Positions 2,936 to 53,902 of a stretch of 64,000 nucleotides of DNA are shown piece after piece. The stretch's first letter is position 1, and the number at the start of each line of letters is the position of its first letter. The DNA comes from Enterobacteria phage vB_EcoM_IME540. The notes beneath the pieces are model-generated. The model was not told the DNA's origin, searched no databases, and saw only the letters and a program-made list of their open reading frames with translations. Both the position numbers and the translations under genes were made by a program. The DNA is taken from the sequence record MT150133.1. One strand, written 5' to 3'.

Positions 2936-4459
2936 TTATAGACCAGTTTGAGACCAATCACCGAATACATCTTCAAATGTATCAGCTTCTGTTTTATCGA
3001 AACGCCAACCTTTAATGATTGGAAGGAAAATACCTACAGTATCAGTACGTCCTTTAGAATGAACCCAACCATTACATTCACAGTCAGCAATACGTCCAAT
3101 CAACTTACCTTCACGAGCTTGTTTCATAAGAAGTTCACGGTCTAAATCAGGACGGTCTTCCAATGGAATCAATACCTTTTTACCTGATTTATCTTTCTTA
3201 TGGGTAGTATCTTTAAAGCCTGAACCACAGTCACTTGTAATTCGACGACAACGTGATACTAACTCAACACCACCTAGTTTGTTAGGGTCCTTCGAGTGTT
3301 CATAATAACCTACCACTTCTAAAGCGATATCGATTACTTCTTTGAACTTGATAAGATTCTTAGAACGGCGGTTTTCCCAGTAGGAGTCCATGTTCTTAAG
3401 GATAATGCCTTCCAGACCTTGGTCGACATATTTCTTATAAACGACTTTAGCTTCTTCAAGATTATTAACCCACTGGTTTTCGATAGCTTCAACACGCGTT
3501 GTGCCATGCAATACGACATTATGAGCCACCATAAGTTCTAAGGCTGTAAAGCGTACATCATACTTATCGCCTTTAATTTTGCCTTCAGAATACACGACAT
3601 CCAGTGGGACATAATCCCATGCCTGTAATACCATACCAGCGGCTTCAGTAGCCGAAATAGTTCCTTGAAGAGCCTTATTAGCCAATCCATTTGACGTAGA
3701 ACGATCGGCGACAGTTTGGAATTCCTTAGCCTTACTTAATTCAGGAAGTTCCTCGTCAAACATACTAAACAAATCATTAGATGCTTTAGGTTCTACCTTA
3801 GGAGTATGGTAAACTAATTCGCCATCAATCATAACGCCATTAGGATGGCGTTGTCGAGCTTCTTCGGTCATGGCCATTAATTCAGCCGCCAAAAGATTAA
3901 GCCCTTGATATTCGTTACCACCACGAGTAAGGAATGTCACACCATCGTTACGAACTTCGGCAAAACAACGAGCACCATCAGCTTTTAATTGAGCAAACGC
4001 TGGCCATTTAATATTTTTCTTAATCAAAGCTTCATCATAAGAACTCGCCAACATCTGCGGTTGTTCAGGGATTAAACCTTTCCAAACCTTGTTAGCAATA
4101 GAAATCGATGCACCACATTCAAGGTCGCGCATCATTACACGACGTAATACCTCGGCATCCGGGGCCTTAGCATCAGCAATGATTTGAGCCAGTTCTTCAA
4201 TAGCCGCATTACCCGTAATCTTACGTGTGGCTAATGTGAATTCAGCGAAATCAAGAAGGTCTTCAAGAGTAATCATACCAAAGGATTGAGATGTAAATCC
4301 AGGTTCTGGCCACTTTTTAATACCGTAGTTCAGACGACGGGTATAAGCCATACGATAAACACGTTTCAGAAGCTCATTGTCCTTTTCACGAGCAATAATG
4401 GCTTCTTTAGCTTTAGTAGAATCAATAGCAGCAATTTCGTTTAAAATATCTAAAATCAT
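2936..4459 (-). CDS. 30: ATP-dependent DNA ligase
   Basis: Strong resemblance to T4 gp30 (MILDILNEIA..., KADGARC adenylation motif); start set at MILD ATG rather than the upstream ORF-track start. Confidence 0.92.
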   Translation of the reverse strand: MILDILNEIAAIDSTKAKEAIIAREKDNELLKRVYRMAYTRRLNYGIKKWPEPGFTSQSFGMITLEDLLDFAEFTLATRKITGNAAIEELAQIIADAKAPDAEVLRRVMMRDLECGASISIANKVWKGLIPEQPQMLASSYDEALIKKNIKWPAFAQLKADGARCFAEVRNDGVTFLTRGGNEYQGLNLLAAELMAMTEEARQRHPNGVMIDGELVYHTPKVEPKASNDLFSMFDEELPELSKAKEFQTVADRSTSNGLANKALQGTISATEAAGMVLQAWDYVPLDVVYSEGKIKGDKYDVRFTALELMVAHNVVLHGTTRVEAIENQWVNNLEEAKVVYKKYVDQGLEGIILKNMDSYWENRRSKNLIKFKEVIDIALEVVGYYEHSKDPNKLGGVELVSRCRRITSDCGSGFKDTTHKKDKSGKKVLIPLEDRPDLDRELLMKQAREGKLIGRIADCECNGWVHSKGRTDTVGIFLPIIKGWRFDKTEADTFEDVFGDWSQTGL

Positions 4460-10306: not shown

Positions 10307-10860
10307 TAGATGGTCTCCAACTTAAGTTGTTTGGTAGTGGTAGCTTGGGTAACGTCGCCTTTAACAATATAACACACTTGTTGGAACGACTTAGTCAAAA
10401 GCTCTTCAGCCTGACGATCGGCTTGTTCCTTTGTGTTATGGCGAGAATGAACTTCAATCTTACCATTTTTAACAATAAGCACTTTCCAATCGGCCGTAGC
10501 TTTTACTGGCTTAGGTTCTGGCTTTACAGCAATACTCGTAGTAGCCAGTGGACGTACTACTTCAATAAAGTATTCGAATTCATGGGCAAAGGCGCCTACT
10601 GAATTAAAAAGAACACTAGTTGCATCATCGGGATTACCTGTGATTTTGCTCAGGTCAACAAACATCAACTCATCGTATACACGAATTCGGCTTACACGTG
10701 GCTTCCCGTTATGGTAATCAATTTCAACTTCAAACGGGTTCATACCTACATACTTGGCAAAAGCTGTATTGAGGCCGTAAGCGCCGTTATTAGTGAATTT
10801 GTTTTTAGTGTATTCACCAACGAACTTATAAAACTTACGCTCTTCAAAGAACTGGCTCAT
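10306..10860 (-). CDS. hypothetical protein
   Basis: ORF track 10306..10971; start moved to ATG at 10860 (MSQFFEE), preceded by GAGGAAA. Confidence 0.45.
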   Translation of the reverse strand: MSQFFEERKFYKFVGEYTKNKFTNNGAYGLNTAFAKYVGMNPFEVEIDYHNGKPRVSRIRVYDELMFVDLSKITGNPDDATSVLFNSVGAFAHEFEYFIEVVRPLATTSIAVKPEPKPVKATADWKVLIVKNGKIEVHSRHNTKEQADRQAEELLTKSFQQVCYIVKGDVTQATTTKQLKLETI

Positions 10861-10922
10861 TTCGATTTCCTCATTTGTTTCGGTAGGACTACTATACCAC
10901 AGTCCTACCATAGTGTAAACAC

Positions 10923-11201
10923 TTAAATTGCTTCGACAACTACCGTTTGTTTCTGGAAGTCCATTTTGCATGAAATAGCCAAAATGTGGTTATCAATTTT
11001 AAATGGAACAATTGCAAATGCTGCACCAGGCGTGAGTTGAACAGTGATTGCATCAACTGCATCTGGGAACATGATTTCCAGAATAGCAGACAAACGACCG
11101 TGCACTTTTAGTTCAGTCGACACGTCGACGCTTTCGTATAGATAATCAGATACAATCTGGCTAAAAACGGTTTTAACAATTTGAGAATAAGTAGGGAACA
11201 T
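10923..11201 (-). CDS. hypothetical protein
   Basis: ORF track. Confidence 0.4.
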   Translation of the reverse strand: MFPTYSQIVKTVFSQIVSDYLYESVDVSTELKVHGRLSAILEIMFPDAVDAITVQLTPGAAFAIVPFKIDNHILAISCKMDFQKQTVVVEAI

Positions 11202-22605: not shown

Positions 22606-22995
22606 TTAGGCCTTAAAAGTTTTTTGCAAAAGTTCAATGATTTGGTCAACGTTCTGTTCGGTGACAATGCAATGGATTTGAGTCACACCGGCCTTAGCAA
22701 TAGGCTCATCGATTTCTTTATCTTCCACAACATATTCACGGAAGCAATAGAACTCGTCTTCATGCAACTCAAAATAATTTGGCACCAACCCAACTTCATT
22801 ATAAATCTCGCCGTTAGCGCATTCGATTTCAGTCACAAATTTGTCGCCATCCATAGTCACCATATCCTTTACTTCAAACCAACCGCCGTTGTCTTGGATA
22901 AGGCCGACCATGCTTTTATTATTTTCATATTCGTCCATTTCAATAAAGTCTTTAATGCATTCAGGACGAAGTTCATAAGTTTTACCGATTTCCAT
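22606..22995 (-). CDS. hypothetical protein
   Basis: ORF track; own early promoter. Confidence 0.45.
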   Translation of the reverse strand: MEIGKTYELRPECIKDFIEMDEYENNKSMVGLIQDNGGWFEVKDMVTMDGDKFVTEIECANGEIYNEVGLVPNYFELHEDEFYCFREYVVEDKEIDEPIAKAGVTQIHCIVTEQNVDQIIELLQKTFKA

Positions 22996-23019
22996 TTTTA
23001 TTTCCTCATGTAGTTGATA

Positions 23020-23056
23020 GGTCTATAGTATCATGTTTAAAGGCGTTGTAAACCAT
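23020..23056 (-). promoter_or_regulatory. early promoter
   Basis: GTTTAC, 17 bp, TG-extended TACTAT; repeat of the 22308 cassette. Confidence 0.6.
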
Positions 23057-49330: not shown

Positions 49331-51148
49331 TTACGACATCCAGGCCTTACGGAGTTGAGGGTCATTACCAAGGAGCATTTCGAACTGTTCTTTCCAATCT
49401 TCAGGTAATTGAACAACATCAAATTTAGGGTCTTGAATCATTCGGCGGTATTCAGCTTTCTCAAGAGAACCTAGTCCTTTGATATACCGAATAGAATGTT
49501 TTGGTAGAGAGTCCTTAGCTTTGGTATAACTAGGAACATCATAGAACCATTCCTGTTCTTTACCGACCTGGGCAATAATTACCGGAGTTTTACAGAAACG
49601 TACTCGGCCTTGTTCGAACAATTCAGGCCATTGACTAAAGAAGGCTAGCAATGATGGATAAATCGAACCAGTACCATCCACATCGGCATCGGTCATAATA
49701 GCAATATTACGATAGTTGGTTTTCTCTGCGGGTTCACCAATAACCAATCCAGTGATTGCACAGATATCAAATAGTTCCTTGTTCTTCATGATATCTGTTG
49801 CTGTCATTCCCCAGGTATTCATAACCTTACCACGTAATGGATAGCCACCTTGAAGGTCTTTATTACGGACTTCAATGAAAGGACCCATAGCGGAATCACC
49901 TTCGGTTAGGAACAGGGTTGTATCAGCATCTTTGCCGTATAAGTTAGCTTTAATATGCTTATGGACCTTGGCTTTAGAAGCTTTCTTAGCGGCTTTAGTT
50001 TCAGCGGCCTTTTCAGCTGCTAATTTACGTGCTAAAGCAGCTTCAACGATAGGCATAATCAACCCATCGACCTTAAGAATAGCTGTGGCAATTTTCTTAG
50101 CATCAATTTGGATATGATTGCGAATCTCACCAAAAGGAGAGGTCAAACGTTCTTTAGTCTGTGAATCAAAACGCATGTTGCTCATATCACGAATGAACAT
50201 CACCATCGTAAGGCATTCTTTAACACGAGCTTTAGTTACTTCAATTCCACGGTATTTCTTTTTAATGCCTGGCAGAAGGTGTTCACAAATATCATCGAAT
50301 ACACATTCAACGTGGTGGCCACCATTCTTGGTGTGGATATTGTTTACATAAGTCAGTTGACGGAATCCATCCGGAGAAGGAGTGAACGCCATCGAAACAT
50401 TATCGGTTTCTTGGATTACAAAGTCTTCACCAAATTGCTTAGCATACTTTTTAAAGTTGCCATCTACTTTTTTACCATTAAAAGTAAATTGAATATCAGG
50501 ATAAACTACGGCCAGAGTTTGCAATCGGTCTAATGTAATATCCAGATAAATTTGTGACAGGCTATTTTCTTCGAAATGATTAAAGTCTGGGGTGAATATA
50601 ACCGAAGTACCCTTACCTTTAGATTTCTTAGTAGACCAACCTTTGTTTTCCATTCCGTTTGAACAGTTAACAGTAATCTCATTCTCACCATCAGAGGTGA
50701 TGCCTGTGAACAAAACAGAGAAGATATTAGTTAAACTACTACCGACACCATTCATGCCGCCTGTCTTACGCTCAGCGTCATCTCCAAAGTTACCACCTGC
50801 CTTTGGAATAGTCCATGCAGCTACAGGACCTGGAATCTGTTCACCATTTTGGTCGGTGACCATTGCTTGTGGAATACCACGACCATTATCAGAAACTGAA
50901 ACCTGGTTATTCTTAATTTGAACATCAATTTTATTTGCGAATTTAAAATTGGTACGAATAGCTTCATCGACAGAGTTATCAATGATTTCATCAATTAATT
51001 TAACCAGTCCAGGAACATAGTTTACCTGTGTAAAATTACCAAACAGGAATCGACCGTGAGCTTCATTAGCACTTGAGCCAATATACATCCCACTACGTTT
51101 TTTGATATGTTCAATGTCGGACAGTACTTTAATTTCATTCTTAATCAT
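49331..51148 (-). CDS. 39: DNA topoisomerase II large subunit (GyrB-like), single fused ORF
   Basis: 605 aa continuous ORF with GHKL ATPase and TOPRIM regions. Confidence 0.92.
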   Translation of the reverse strand: MIKNEIKVLSDIEHIKKRSGMYIGSSANEAHGRFLFGNFTQVNYVPGLVKLIDEIIDNSVDEAIRTNFKFANKIDVQIKNNQVSVSDNGRGIPQAMVTDQNGEQIPGPVAAWTIPKAGGNFGDDAERKTGGMNGVGSSLTNIFSVLFTGITSDGENEITVNCSNGMENKGWSTKKSKGKGTSVIFTPDFNHFEENSLSQIYLDITLDRLQTLAVVYPDIQFTFNGKKVDGNFKKYAKQFGEDFVIQETDNVSMAFTPSPDGFRQLTYVNNIHTKNGGHHVECVFDDICEHLLPGIKKKYRGIEVTKARVKECLTMVMFIRDMSNMRFDSQTKERLTSPFGEIRNHIQIDAKKIATAILKVDGLIMPIVEAALARKLAAEKAAETKAAKKASKAKVHKHIKANLYGKDADTTLFLTEGDSAMGPFIEVRNKDLQGGYPLRGKVMNTWGMTATDIMKNKELFDICAITGLVIGEPAEKTNYRNIAIMTDADVDGTGSIYPSLLAFFSQWPELFEQGRVRFCKTPVIIAQVGKEQEWFYDVPSYTKAKDSLPKHSIRYIKGLGSLEKAEYRRMIQDPKFDVVQLPEDWKEQFEMLLGNDPQLRKAWMS

Positions 51149-51481: not shown

Positions 51482-51658
51482 TCACTTAGTCAGCAGGTCG
51501 TAAAAACCGCCATTAACATGTTTAGGAGCCGAGACTAACCGAACAGCCAGCCGATGGCAATCAGGACAAACATCATTATCTCTTTCAGAGATTTTCTTGA
51601 TTTTTTCGTATTCTTTTGCACAGTCTTCAGATTGGCATTTGTAATCATAAAGTGGCAT
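51482..51658 (-). CDS. small zinc-ribbon protein
   Basis: CxxC...CPxC pattern (YDYKCQSEDC...VCPDCH); ORF track 51482..51751 trimmed to MPLYDYK ATG. Confidence 0.4.
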   Translation of the reverse strand: MPLYDYKCQSEDCAKEYEKIKKISERDNDVCPDCHRLAVRLVSAPKHVNGGFYDLLTK

Positions 51659-51869
51659 TATAAGTTTCCTTCCAGAAGTCGGTGCCTTCAGCAGTGATTT
51701 CACGGAACACCGCATAGATAGGGTTTTTATCACCTTGATTTTCGTATACATAAACCGATGATAAATGAGAAAACATATCAGAATGTTCCTTTTGGACCAC
51801 GATTAAATCAGGGTTGAACAGAACATCTTCAAATTCTTCACGAGTCGAGTTCATAGTAACTTTAGCCAT
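51645..51869 (-). CDS. hypothetical protein
   Basis: ORF track; own early promoter. Confidence 0.4.
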   Translation of the reverse strand: MAKVTMNSTREEFEDVLFNPDLIVVQKEHSDMFSHLSSVYVYENQGDKNPIYAVFREITAEGTDFWKETYNATL

Positions 51870-51942: not shown

Positions 51943-52509
51943 TTATGCAAAATGAATATCAGCATACTCAACGATAAAGCTCTCAGGAACAACCTTAAAG
52001 GTTCCAAGGAATACGATGTTATAGAGCTTAACGCCTTCTTCAACCCATTGGTCTGTGATGTAACCGGACATACTAGTGGTTTCATAAGTCGGACCATACT
52101 TGCAATTGTATTCAAACGGTTTAGGTGAAACGAAAAAGACACCTTTACCCAATTTCCATTTGAAATCAACACCAACATGAGATTGGTCAATAGTTTCAAC
52201 GTCTTGAGCTACTACGCCACGGATATCATTGCTTTCACATACATACCTATCATGGGATTCAACTTCTTCAACTACAGGAGCGATGTATCCGGTAAATTCA
52301 GTCGATTCCAAGAATTTAGCACGCACATAAGCGAATTGAGTTTCAGTCTGGCCATTTTTAGGAATGATACGCACTTTTACTTCAGAATTTTCTACACTGA
52401 CACCTTCTTTAAGTTGGATGCTAACAACTTCAACTAAACGGCCTGCAGCTTTTGAACGAGACTTTTTGGATACACGAACGATACCGCCGATATCGGAAAT
52501 AGTAATCAT
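51943..52509 (-). CDS. hypothetical protein, paralog of 52583..53338 (shared C-terminal motif)
   Basis: C-terminus ITDQWVEEGVKLYNIVFLGTFKVVPESFIVEY aligns with VTDQWVEDGVELLNVVHAGDFSVVPRSAVVNVL. Confidence 0.5.
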   Translation of the reverse strand: MITISDIGGIVRVSKKSRSKAAGRLVEVVSIQLKEGVSVENSEVKVRIIPKNGQTETQFAYVRAKFLESTEFTGYIAPVVEEVESHDRYVCESNDIRGVVAQDVETIDQSHVGVDFKWKLGKGVFFVSPKPFEYNCKYGPTYETTSMSGYITDQWVEEGVKLYNIVFLGTFKVVPESFIVEYADIHFA

Positions 52510-52582
52510 AATTTTTCTCTCTTGGTTAAAGGTTTATAATCCATGAGAGCCATTATAACATGGCTCTCGATAAAGTAAACTA

Positions 52583-53338
52583 TTAATTCAATACATTAAC
52601 CACTGCACTACGAGGTACTACACTAAAATCACCAGCATGGACAACGTTCAGGAGCTCAACACCATCTTCAACCCACTGGTCTGTTACCCAACCACAGATA
52701 GGATTATCAAAAGGACGACGGATAGACACAGCAGCACACAACAGGTCGGTAGGGTCTTGTTCTTCAACTTCTTGGAACAGGATTAACTCTGCTTCATAAA
52801 CCAGGTTTTTCTCTACTTTGTTATTATCTAACCGGCGACCGTGGATGACATAAGATTTGGCAAACCAGTCACTTTTGGCAAATTCTTCAACAATAAATTC
52901 GCCTTCGCCAAAAACAGCAGTCAGAGTTTTATAACCAGAAATCAAGGCCTTAGTTTTAATTTCAGGTTCAACCAGTTTGTAGGTTTTGCCGATTTCGATA
53001 GTCTGAGTAGTCATAGGTGATTCCTTAATTTCCAGTGGTTTAACAGGGCATACATAAGTGCTTAAAACATCAAAATCAATTAGCTGGCTTGCCATTGGGG
53101 CCAAACGAATAAATGAATCAATTTCCCGTTGTGACAAGCGAATGGTGTGGATTTCCGGGACACCGCATTCTTGAACTGTTACAGATTTAATATTATCAAA
53201 CTCATCAGGTTCAATAGAAAGAATACGGAACTCGGTACCTTTAGTCATCTTTTTAAGGATGTCATAAGCTTGGTTGTGGAGCTTAAGGGCTGAAAACGGC
53301 GTAACAATATATTTGGCATTCGGATCAAAAGTGTTCAT
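52583..53338 (-). CDS. hypothetical protein, paralog of 51943..52509
   Basis: Shared C-terminal motif with neighbour; 251 aa. Confidence 0.5.
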   Translation of the reverse strand: MNTFDPNAKYIVTPFSALKLHNQAYDILKKMTKGTEFRILSIEPDEFDNIKSVTVQECGVPEIHTIRLSQREIDSFIRLAPMASQLIDFDVLSTYVCPVKPLEIKESPMTTQTIEIGKTYKLVEPEIKTKALISGYKTLTAVFGEGEFIVEEFAKSDWFAKSYVIHGRRLDNNKVEKNLVYEAELILFQEVEEQDPTDLLCAAVSIRRPFDNPICGWVTDQWVEDGVELLNVVHAGDFSVVPRSAVVNVLN

Positions 53339-53844
53339 AATTTTCTCATTTCAATAAAATCTACAAGTTCGGCATGGGATTTGCGGAACATTACTTGGCG
53401 GCCGCCGATGACAACCTCATCTTCTGGTATTTCGTAAACAGCGAGGTAAAATCCTTTAGAAGATAATTCTTCACGCTCTTCACGAGTGAACCAGCGCATC
53501 ATATCATACTCGCTGGCAAAAGCAAAATGGTAGAGGTTAACAAACCAACCTGGAATATAATCATCAGAGCCTTCATAATCAGACCGTTTCCACTTGGTTC
53601 TAATGGCTTTATTAGAATTTTCTACCAACAACTTATCTTGACCTGGTAGCGGAATATTTTTATTAATGCTATGATGATGCCTAAAATTAGGTCTGTTGAA
53701 ACCTACTTCCAATAACCAACCTTCACTCCACGGGTCCATTGTACTTCTATATGGAGTCATTTGGATACAGAGGTCTCGACGTATTGTTACAGCATCTTCA
53801 TAATCTAGGATACTGAACGATGACTCCACTCGATAAATTTTCAT
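53335..53844 (-). CDS. hypothetical protein
   Basis: ORF track; own early promoter. Confidence 0.45.
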   Translation of the reverse strand: MKIYRVESSFSILDYEDAVTIRRDLCIQMTPYRSTMDPWSEGWLLEVGFNRPNFRHHHSINKNIPLPGQDKLLVENSNKAIRTKWKRSDYEGSDDYIPGWFVNLYHFAFASEYDMMRWFTREEREELSSKGFYLAVYEIPEDEVVIGGRQVMFRKSHAELVDFIEMRKL

Positions 53845-53866: not shown

Positions 53867-53902
53867 GGTAGATAATATCATGTCATGAGGAGAAGTAAAC
53901 AT
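53867..53902 (-). promoter_or_regulatory. early promoter
   Basis: GTTTAC, 17 bp, TG-extended TATTAT. Confidence 0.55.

What the first reader, a model, noticed from the sequence alone, without database searches (positions are those of the whole stretch)
51943..53338. Paralogous gene pair sharing a C-terminal ~35-aa module upstream of gene 39
The 188-aa and 251-aa products have unrelated N-terminal parts but end in a conserved module (I/V-TDQWVE-E/D-GV-x-L-x-N-I/V-V...F-x-VVP-x-S). Shared C-terminal anchor with variable N-terminal domains is a pattern seen in modular effector or targeting proteins. I cannot assign a function.
Basis: seen in the sequence. Interest (0 to 1): 0.5.

Follow-up and report, generated by a model that had tools for sequence, protein, structure and literature searches.

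The report
MotB and MotB.1 phage paralogs
The two genes are the T4-type phage genes motB (a DNA-binding host-takeover protein) and its neighbour motB.1, whose shared C-terminal domain with different N-terminal domains was published in 2021, so the finding is real but already known.

The parts
51943..52509 (-). motB gene (188 aa)
   Evidence: Pfam PF17613 motB E=1.3e-61, 207.6 bits; PHROG 1671 E=1.7e-71. Lies between cef and motB.1, as in T4.
52300..52509 (-). MotB N-terminal domain, residues 1-70: basic KOW/SH3-like barrel with the invariant V-S-x2-S-x-S-K-x2-G motif
   Evidence: AF2 strands 10-13, 25-32, 43-48, 58-63, a 3-10 turn, then 67-69, with pLDDT 63-88. Net charge +5, pI 10.0. Invariant columns. 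KOW assignment published in PMC7827196.
52177..52299 (-). MotB acidic disordered linker, residues 71-111
   Evidence: pLDDT below 50 for residues 71-109. Net charge -8. Length varies among homologues of 151-197 aa.
51946..52176 (-). MotB C-terminal domain, residues 112-188: the shared module with a long beta1-beta2 hairpin insertion
   Evidence: AF2 strands 123-135, 141-157, 160-167, 170-175, a 3-10 turn, then 179-182, with pLDDT 74-91. Aligned to the MotB.1 CTD.
51970..52071 (-).
   Evidence: BLASTP alignment.
52583..53338 (-). motB.1 gene, long form (251 aa)
   Evidence: PHROG 2333 E=1.6e-78, the same PHROG as T4 MotB.1. Lies between motB.2 and motB. Annotated 'MotB.1' in VR5, MX01 and IME341. 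The MX01_10 and VR5_011 orthologues are listed in Table S4 of PMC7827196.
53093..53338 (-). N-terminal extra domain of MotB.1 ('N-ext', residues 1-82)
   Evidence: Found by tblastn in only six distinct phage genomes (nine database records), all Dhakavirus and always fused to MotB.1. dN/dS 0.04-0.16 with up to 24 synonymous differences. AF2 gives alpha-beta-beta-beta-alpha at low confidence. Weak profile match to the X/GoF-type domain: score 21.2, reached by 1 of 300 column shuffles.
53009..53092 (-). Disordered linker, residues 83-110. It carries the conserved short motif LIDFDVLSTYVCPVKPLE (residues 86-103; about 53030-53083). A Shine-Dalgarno-like AAGGA lies 7 nt before the invariant internal Met109 (53012-53014).
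   Evidence: pLDDT below 50 for residues 77-110. Nearly invariant D88 F89 D90 S93 Y95 K100 P101 L102 and invariant M109. The same motif occurs in KOW+CTD hybrids at a different position. DNA is identical across window, IME08 and VR5.
52763..53008 (-). MotB.1 'X' domain, residues 111-192: the GoF/Frd.2-type LSm-like domain
   Evidence: AF2 beta-alpha-beta-beta-beta-alpha-beta with pLDDT 77-86. hhalign to GoF-family N-terminal domains: probability 80%, E=1.5e-5 over 73 columns. PHROG 622 (GoF family) E=4.5e-3. Published for T4 MotB.1 in PMC12152347.
52586..52762 (-). MotB.1 C-terminal domain, residues 193-251: the shared module, short form beginning DPTDLL
   Evidence: AF2 strands 203-206, 214-224, 227-234, 237-242, a 3-10 turn, then 246-250, with pLDDT 66-81. 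Net charge -6, pI 4.1. Alignment A3.
52598..52699 (-).
   Evidence: BLASTP alignment.
52552..52579 (-). Promoter-like site (TTTACT-16-TG-TATAAT) in the motB.1/motB intergenic gap
   Evidence: 10 of 12 matches with an extended -10. This is a consensus match only; the region as a whole is not enriched over shuffles.
53335..53844 (-). motB.2 (169 aa), whose stop overlaps the motB.1 start (ATGA)
   Evidence: Coordinates. PHROG 1106. T4 MotB.2 orthologue by synteny and sequence. A promoter-like site lies upstream at 53872-53899.

Best explanation
The pair is motB and motB.1 of a Dhakavirus (T4-type) phage. They are ancient tandem paralogues that kept one C-terminal domain and acquired different N-terminal domains by domain shuffling. 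The shared CTD is a five-stranded SH3/Tudor-like small beta-barrel. MotB is a basic KOW-like barrel, an acidic flexible linker, and a CTD carrying a hairpin insertion. This MotB.1 is an extra 82-aa domain, a disordered linker with a conserved short motif, a GoF-type LSm-like domain, and the CTD. What is shown: homology, domain boundaries, the predicted fold, restriction of the family to T4-type phages of enterobacteria, and purifying selection on every part. What comes from the literature: MotB is an abundant early protein that binds DNA tightly and non-specifically, alters H-NS footprints, de-represses H-NS-silenced host genes, is toxic, and doubles burst size. No phenotype is known for MotB.1. 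What I infer (about 45% likely): non-specific DNA binding resides mainly in the basic KOW-like head of MotB. The acidic, highly conserved CTD would be a common docking or homo/hetero-oligomerisation module. This would give MotB an H-NS-like layout of nucleic-acid-binding head, flexible linker and assembly tail. It would also bring the LSm-like heads of MotB.1 to the same complex or partner.
Confidence: 0.6

Rival explanations
1. The shared CTD is itself the nucleic-acid-binding domain (OB-fold or cold-shock-like, as published, or an SH3-like DNA/RNA binder). Both MotB and MotB.1 would then bind nucleic acid through it, and the N-terminal domains would add specificity or partners.
Against: The CTD is acidic in MotB.1 (-6, pI 4.1) and about neutral in MotB. 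The residues conserved across both paralogues are D, E, W, G, N and L rather than K or R. The strand order, with a 3-10 turn between beta4 and beta5 and no helix between beta3 and beta4, fits SH3-like rather than OB. No phenotype or nucleic-acid effect was found for MotB.1 (PMC12152347).
Confidence: 0.3
2. The similarity is a chance or compositional match between unrelated small proteins.
For: None, beyond the shortness of the stretch first noticed.
Against: BLASTP E=4e-11. Pfam hit above the curated cut-off. hhalign E=2e-16. Both subtypes are recovered together by one profile from 1.84 billion proteins.
Confidence: 0.01
3. The constant C-terminus is a targeting or anchor signal of polymorphic effectors, for example for packaging into virions, secretion or localisation, with the N-terminal domains as cargo.
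For: A constant C-terminal module with swapped N-terminal modules is what such systems look like.
Against: There are no signal peptides, trafficking or toxin domains, and no immunity-like partner. MotB is a cytoplasmic early DNA-binding protein (PMC6070864). The N-terminal modules are nucleic-acid-binding folds (KOW, LSm-like), not enzymes. The family has few architectures and is confined to one phage subfamily.
Confidence: 0.05

Closest known systems
Bacteriophage T4 MotB (NP_049626, 162 aa; Pfam PF17613)
   Same: Full-length homologue of the 188-aa protein: same KOW-like NTD, same CTD, same genomic position. About 54% identity to the cluster that contains T4-type MotB (P0187).
   Different: The window protein has a linker about 25 aa longer and strongly acidic, which makes the whole protein acidic (pI 5.3, against 9.2 for T4 MotB).
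Bacteriophage T4 MotB.1 (P39415 / NP_049627) and the 'Category 2-4' MotB.1 group of Patterson-West et al. 2021
   Same: Same PHROG (2333). Same CTD subtype (DPTDLL...CGWVTDQWIEDGVELLNVVH; 80% identical over 30 aa). Same position between motB.2 and motB. Same LSm-like N-terminal domain type.
   Different: The window protein carries 108 extra N-terminal residues: the N-ext domain plus the motif-bearing linker. Its X domain is too diverged from the T4 NTD for BLAST to detect. The T4 reference annotation is truncated at 119 aa by a one-base difference.
GoF / Frd.2 LSm-like fold family of Tevenvirinae (Kim et al. 2025, PMC12152347; PHROG 622)
   Same: The X domain of the 251-aa protein aligns to GoF-family N-terminal domains (hhalign probability 80%, E=1.5e-5; PHROG 622 E=4.5e-3).
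   Different: GoF and Frd.2 have other C-terminal domains and lack the MotB CTD. The CTD, not this domain, is what the finding is about.
SH3-like small beta-barrels (Tudor, chromo, PWWP, BAH core, KOW, Sm)
   Different: Only 10-23% identity and no sequence-level relationship. An aromatic-cage function is not established. The match rests on predicted models.
H-NS-type nucleoid-associated proteins and their truncated or paralogous modulators (StpA, Hha, H-NST). This is a functional analogy only.
   Same: The proposed layout is a nucleic-acid-binding head, a flexible linker and an assembly domain, with paralogues that share only the assembly domain.
   Different: No homology. The domain order is reversed (H-NS oligomerises through its N-terminus). 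Oligomerisation of the MotB CTD is untested.

Membership tests
MotB (Pfam PF17613), applied to the 188-aa protein | Full-length match to the MotB profile above the curated cut-off | tested here: met
   207.6 bits against a cut-off of 25; PHROG 1671 covers residues 5-188.
MotB (Pfam PF17613), applied to the 188-aa protein | KOW-like N-terminal barrel with the conserved V-S-x2-S-R-S-K-x-A-G motif | tested here: met
   VSKKSRSKAAG at residues 13-23; invariant columns in 43 homologues; SH3-like strand pattern in AF2.
MotB (Pfam PF17613), applied to the 188-aa protein | Position between cef and motB.1 in the 39-dda early region | tested here: met
   Gene order 39, 39.1, 39.2, cef, motB, motB.1, motB.2, dexA, dexA.1, dda.
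MotB (Pfam PF17613), applied to the 188-aa protein | Tight non-specific DNA binding, toxicity in E. coli, copurification with H-NS/StpA | not testable with these tools
   Known only for T4 MotB (PMC6070864, PMC7827196).
MotB.1 group (PHROG 2333; Categories 2-4 of PMC7827196), applied to the 251-aa protein | MotB.1-type CTD (DPTDLL...CGWVTDQW(I/V)EDGVELLNVVH...VVPRS) at the C-terminus | tested here: met
   Residues 195-244; invariant in 34 homologues; Pfam motB 35.3 bits.
MotB.1 group (PHROG 2333; Categories 2-4 of PMC7827196), applied to the 251-aa protein | Gene immediately upstream of motB and downstream of motB.2 | tested here: met
   ATGA overlap with motB.2.
MotB.1 group (PHROG 2333; Categories 2-4 of PMC7827196), applied to the 251-aa protein | Non-KOW N-terminal domain of the GoF/Frd.2 LSm-like type | tested here: met
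   PHROG 2333 covers residues 80-251, and T4 MotB.1 matches the same PHROG over its whole length. hhalign of X against the GoF family gives E=1.5e-5. The fold itself is only predicted.
MotB.1 group (PHROG 2333; Categories 2-4 of PMC7827196), applied to the 251-aa protein | Already catalogued as a member in the literature | tested here: met
   MX01_10 (YP_009323907.1) and VR5_011 (YP_009205705.1) appear in the paper's homologue table. The MX01 protein differs from the window protein at about 4 of 251 residues.
OB-fold / cold-shock DNA-binding domain (published assignment for the CTD) | Five-stranded barrel with OB topology (helix between beta3 and beta4) and structural neighbours that are OB-folds | tested here: not met
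Tudor / 'Royal family' methyl-lysine readers | Aromatic cage that binds methylated Lys/Arg; sequence-level family membership | tested here: inconclusive
Polymorphic effector/toxin systems with a shared anchor | Trafficking or anchor domain plus variable toxin domain and a cognate immunity gene | tested here: not met
   No toxin, secretion or immunity families in Pfam or PHROGs for these genes or their neighbours. The variable parts are KOW-like and LSm-like folds.

The most novel reading that the evidence does not exclude
The MotB CTD is an SH3-like homo/hetero-oligomerisation (or common partner-docking) domain. MotB would then be a phage-built, H-NS-style nucleoid protein with a basic KOW head, a flexible linker and an assembly tail. 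The acidic MotB.1 variants, with one to three LSm-like heads, would co-assemble with it as modulators or RNA-recruiting subunits, much as Hha, StpA and H-NST do for H-NS. The 82-aa N-ext of this window would be a third, highly diverged copy of the GoF-type domain.
Probability: 0.2. Interest if true: 0.5.

Novelty: already known. Interest (0 to 1): 0.18.

Why it matters
The finding itself does not change anything. It re-discovers the MotB/MotB.1 relationship in a Dhakavirus genome whose close relatives already carry those annotations.

The follow-up adds some modest points for people who work on T4 host takeover:
- The shared domain looks SH3/Tudor-like rather than OB.
- The charge distribution argues that the KOW head, not the shared CTD, is the non-specific DNA binder.
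- The family is a small combinatorial set of four or five modules with the CTD always last.
- The T4 reference motB.1, and hence the '13.8 kDa' protein used experimentally, appears truncated by a one-base error. That could explain the negative results reported for MotB.1.

Tried and rejected
- PDB sequence searches with both proteins found no meaningful hits.
- A search of the 5.8-billion-protein collection with an alignment of the N-ext returned nothing, not even the known long-form members. That null result is therefore uninformative.
- tblastn of the N-ext against 50,697 phage records found only the six long-form Dhakavirus genomes. The next hits (Citrobacter phage Lon-inhibitor genes, E=0.8) are noise.
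- N-ext against the MotB NTD, the MotB CTD and a GoF-only alignment: not significant. Only the broad X-family profile gives a weak signal.
- X domain against the MotB KOW domain: no similarity.
- Seven long proteins (601-1156 aa) in the exhaustive CTD search each match at 4-7 stretches. The two I read (P0253, P0254) match through GYATEQWV...GYLT repeats. I rejected all seven as spurious motif hits.
- The published OB-fold assignment was not reproduced.
- The promoter/terminator scan shows no overall enrichment over shuffles. Only the intergenic placement of two sites on the coding strand is suggestive.
- Chance similarity and the effector/immunity reading are both rejected; see the rival explanations.
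- I could not superpose the two CTD models or run multimer predictions.

Full report
**What is there**

The region 51943-53338 holds two minus-strand ORFs, of 188 aa (51943-52509) and 251 aa (52583-53338). The surrounding genes on the same strand are:
- gene 39 topoisomerase subunit (49331-51148)
- a 39.1-like ORF
- a zinc-ribbon 39.2
- cef
- the two ORFs of the finding
- a 169-aa ORF whose stop overlaps the start of the 251-aa ORF
- dexA
- a dexA.1-like ORF
- dda

Megablast places the segment in the genus Dhakavirus (JS98-like T4-type phages). It is 98% identical to Salmonella phage ABTNLsp5 and 95-96% identical to MX01 and IME341. The gene order matches T4: 39, 39.1, 39.2, goF, cef, motB, motB.1, motB.2, dexA, dexA.1, dexA.2, dda. 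The exception is that goF is missing here.

Yes.
- BLASTP aligns residues 147-180 of the 188-aa protein with residues 214-247 of the 251-aa protein. The match is 19/34 identical, ungapped, E=4e-11.
- Pfam's motB model hits the 188-aa protein over its full length (207.6 bits). It hits the 251-aa protein at 211-246 with 35.3 bits. The curated cut-off is 25.
- Profile-profile comparison of alignments of 34 and 43 homologues gives probability 98.7% and E=2.3e-16 over 52 columns.
It begins at L199-x3-V...PF in the 251-aa protein (about residue 119 in MotB). In MotB it is interrupted by a 17-25 residue insertion.
- The N-terminal parts show no sequence similarity.

**What the genes are**

The 188-aa protein is MotB (Pfam PF17613, PHROG 1671). 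The 251-aa protein is MotB.1:
- It matches PHROG 2333, which T4 MotB.1 also matches over its whole length.
- It sits between motB.2 and motB.
- It is annotated 'MotB.1' in VR5, MX01 and IME341.

Patterson-West et al. [quoted passage not shown] They sort 102 homologues into categories by NTD and suggest a gene duplication. Their supplementary table lists MX01_10 and VR5_011, the orthologues of this very protein. Kim et al. 2025 (PMC12152347) describe the MotB.1 NTD as an LSm-like fold related to GoF and Frd.2.

**Anatomy from structure prediction**

The AF2 model of MotB has mean pLDDT 72. It shows:
- an N-terminal five-stranded barrel (residues 10-69)
- a disordered stretch (71-109)
- a C-terminal five-stranded unit: 123-135, 141-157, 160-167, 170-175, a 3-10 turn, then 179-182

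The AF2 model of the 251-aa protein has mean pLDDT 64. It shows:
- a low-confidence alpha-beta-beta-beta-alpha unit (15-79)
- a disordered stretch (77-110)
- a confident beta-alpha-beta-beta-beta-alpha-beta domain (119-190, pLDDT 77-86)
- the CTD: 203-206, 214-224, 227-234, 237-242, a 3-10 turn, then 246-250

The two CTDs thus have the same strand order. MotB differs only in a much longer beta1-beta2 hairpin, which is the insertion seen in the alignment. A 3-10 turn between beta4 and beta5, with no helix between beta3 and beta4, is the SH3-like small-barrel signature, not the OB signature.

**The middle domain**

Residues 111-192 (the 'X' domain) belong to the GoF/Frd.2/MotB.1-NTD family.
- hhalign against a small GoF-family alignment gives probability 80% and E=1.5e-5 over 73 columns.
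- PHROG 622, the family T4 GoF belongs to, is hit at E=4.5e-3.
- An HMM built from X-type domains picks out two GoF-family paralogues elsewhere in the window, at 22609-23022 and 10309-10989.

**The extra N-terminal domain**

Residues 1-82 ('N-ext') are absent from most MotB.1 proteins, which are about 180 aa or about 141 aa long.
- tblastn finds N-ext in only six distinct phage genomes, all Dhakavirus and always at the start of MotB.1.
- It is a real coding domain. dN/dS is 0.04-0.16, with up to 24 synonymous differences, as low as in the X domain and the CTD.
- Its predicted secondary-structure order mirrors that of X.
- A broad X-family profile aligns to it in the matching register with hhalign score 21.2, which 1 of 300 column shuffles reaches. 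A GoF-only profile does not align.
- I rate 'diverged third copy of the GoF-type domain' at about 40%.
- The short forms keep the first 13-14 residues (MKFNYNPEYTPNP against MNTFDPNAKYIVTP). At the DNA level they look like an internal deletion of about 200 nt.

**Family census**

I searched a profile of 16 CTDs of both subtypes against 1.84 billion cluster representatives. It returned 34 proteins at E<=1e-3.
- Seven are long proteins (601-1156 aa) that each match at 4-7 stretches. The two I read, P0253 and P0254, match through a GYATEQWV repeat. I treat all seven as spurious.
- The remaining roughly 27 are 43-251 aa. The CTD is at the extreme C-terminus in every complete one I inspected.

Motif mapping gives these architectures:
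- KOW+CTD (MotB)
- X+CTD (T4 MotB.1)
- motif+X+CTD (180-aa forms)
- motif+X+X+CTD (UPEC01 type)
- N-ext+motif+X+CTD (this window)
- KOW(+motif)+MotB.1-type CTD hybrids; a Klebsiella phage gene annotated 'transcription modifier protein' is the closest phage match (61% identity, full length) to one of these

In the phage collection the family is in about 765 of 50,697 records. The listed hits are T4-type phages, and the hosts are almost all Enterobacterales. The CTD subtype and the NTD type are therefore not strictly linked. The family is a small combinatorial set with a constant C-terminal domain.

**How it most likely works**

Established for T4 MotB (PMC6070864, PMC7827196):
- It is abundant and expressed early.
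- It binds modified and unmodified DNA tightly and non-specifically.
- It copurifies with H-NS and StpA only when DNA is present, and it changes the H-NS footprint.
- It up-regulates 75 host genes, a third of them H-NS-repressed.
- It is toxic and doubles burst size.

No domain-level experiment exists. For MotB.1, no phenotype is known (PMC12152347).

My inference rests on charge and conservation.
- The KOW-like head is basic (+5, pI 10).
- The CTD is acidic in MotB.1 (-6, pI 4.1) and about neutral in MotB (-2 here, +1 in T4).
- Whole MotB.1 has pI 4.9.
- The columns invariant across both paralogues are G, D, W, E, G, L, N and V.

That pattern fits a protein-protein surface better than a non-specific DNA-binding surface. 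I therefore favour a model in which the head binds nucleic acid and the CTD is a shared docking or oligomerisation module. MotB would have a head-linker-assembly layout analogous to H-NS-type proteins. MotB.1 would carry LSm-like heads to the same assembly or partner.

I put this mechanism at about 45%. The published alternative, that the CTD binds nucleic acid, I put at about 30%. The identity of the genes is near certain.

**Verdict**

The finding re-discovers a published relationship in genes that are already annotated as such in near-identical genomes. Novelty: already known. Interest: low.

The side results are listed under 'noticed in passing':
- the extra N-terminal domain
- the SH3-like rather than OB fold
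- the hybrid architectures
- the linker motif
- the probable one-base error in the T4 reference motB.1

Noticed in passing
L004 (NC_000866.4) 3292-3651, minus strand; compare L003 (KJ477685.1): The T4 reference motB.1 (119 aa, '13.8 kDa', ends ...WVTDQWIGRWR) carries one extra G relative to T4 strain 147. Without that G the ORF is 142 aa and ends with the complete conserved CTD (...WVTDQWIEDGVELLNVVHAGEYSVVPRSAVVAILN). Only AF158101.6 and NC_000866.4 have the extra base. Eleven other T4 records, plus RB55 and RB59, lack it. This is probably an error in the reference. The 2025 study of MotB.1 quotes the 13.8 kDa size, so it may have worked with, or modelled, a protein lacking half of the CTD.
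   Followed up: partly
window 53093-53338 (-): An extra 82-aa N-terminal domain on MotB.1 is found in only six distinct Dhakavirus genomes (nine records). It is under purifying selection (dN/dS about 0.1). It may be a very diverged third copy of the GoF-type LSm-like domain (hhalign score 21.2, reached by 1 of 300 shuffles). The short (about 180-aa) forms look like internal-deletion derivatives.
   Followed up: yes
window 53009-53092 (-): The disordered linker carries a conserved short motif, (L/I/V)(I/V)D-x-D-V-x-S-(T/M)-Y...P-x-K-P-L. The motif recurs in distant KOW+CTD hybrids at a different position relative to the domains, which suggests a short linear interaction motif. In Dhakaviruses the DNA here is almost invariant (low dS). 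It contains AAGGA 7 nt before the invariant Met109, so a shorter 143-aa product (X+CTD, like T4 MotB.1) might also be made by internal initiation.
   Followed up: partly
window 51482-51869 (-); 22609-23022 (-); 10309-10989 (-): goF is absent from its usual place between 39.2 and cef; IME08, VR5 and IME341 have it there. The window nevertheless encodes two GoF-family (LSm-like) paralogues elsewhere: a PHROG 622 member at 22609-23022 (E=4.9e-40) and a PHROG 5804/goF-like protein at 10309-10989.
   Followed up: partly
P0257 (43 aa, metagenomic); P0108/P0109/P0119 (about 250 aa): P0257 is the first 16 residues of MotB.2 fused in frame to the last 27 residues of the MotB.1 CTD. It is a deletion remnant, like the 29-aa RB69 peptide mentioned in the 2021 paper. 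The UPEC01-type MotB.1 proteins carry a tandem duplication of the X domain (hhalign between the two copies E=5e-11).
   Followed up: partly
P0238, P0240, P0244, P0246, P0248, P0249, P0251, P0252; PP582757.1 8687-9130: Hybrid proteins combine a MotB-type KOW head with a MotB.1-type (DPTDLL) CTD. A Klebsiella phage gene is the closest phage match (61% identity, full length) to one of them, P0244. They show that head type and CTD subtype were shuffled independently. They may resemble the ancestor of both paralogues.
   Followed up: partly
window 53335-53338; 52552-52579 (-); 53872-53899 (-): The motB.2 stop and the motB.1 start overlap (ATGA), which suggests translational coupling. Promoter-like sites (TTTACT-16-TG-TATAAT/TATTAT) sit in the intergenic gaps just upstream of motB and of motB.2. 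This suggests two early transcription units, motB.2-motB.1 and motB.
   Followed up: no
L005 (OM386655.1, phage ESCO10): This record's annotation of the region is clearly wrong. MotB is labelled 'spackle periplasmic protein', DexA.1 is labelled 'major capsid domain-containing protein', Dda is labelled 'DNA primase' and MotB.2 is labelled 'nucleotidyltransferase'.
   Followed up: no
window 52177-52299 (-): The MotB linker in this clade is about 25 aa longer than in T4 and strongly acidic (net -8). This turns the whole protein from basic (T4, pI 9.2) to acidic (pI 5.3). I do not know whether this changes DNA binding.
   Followed up: no
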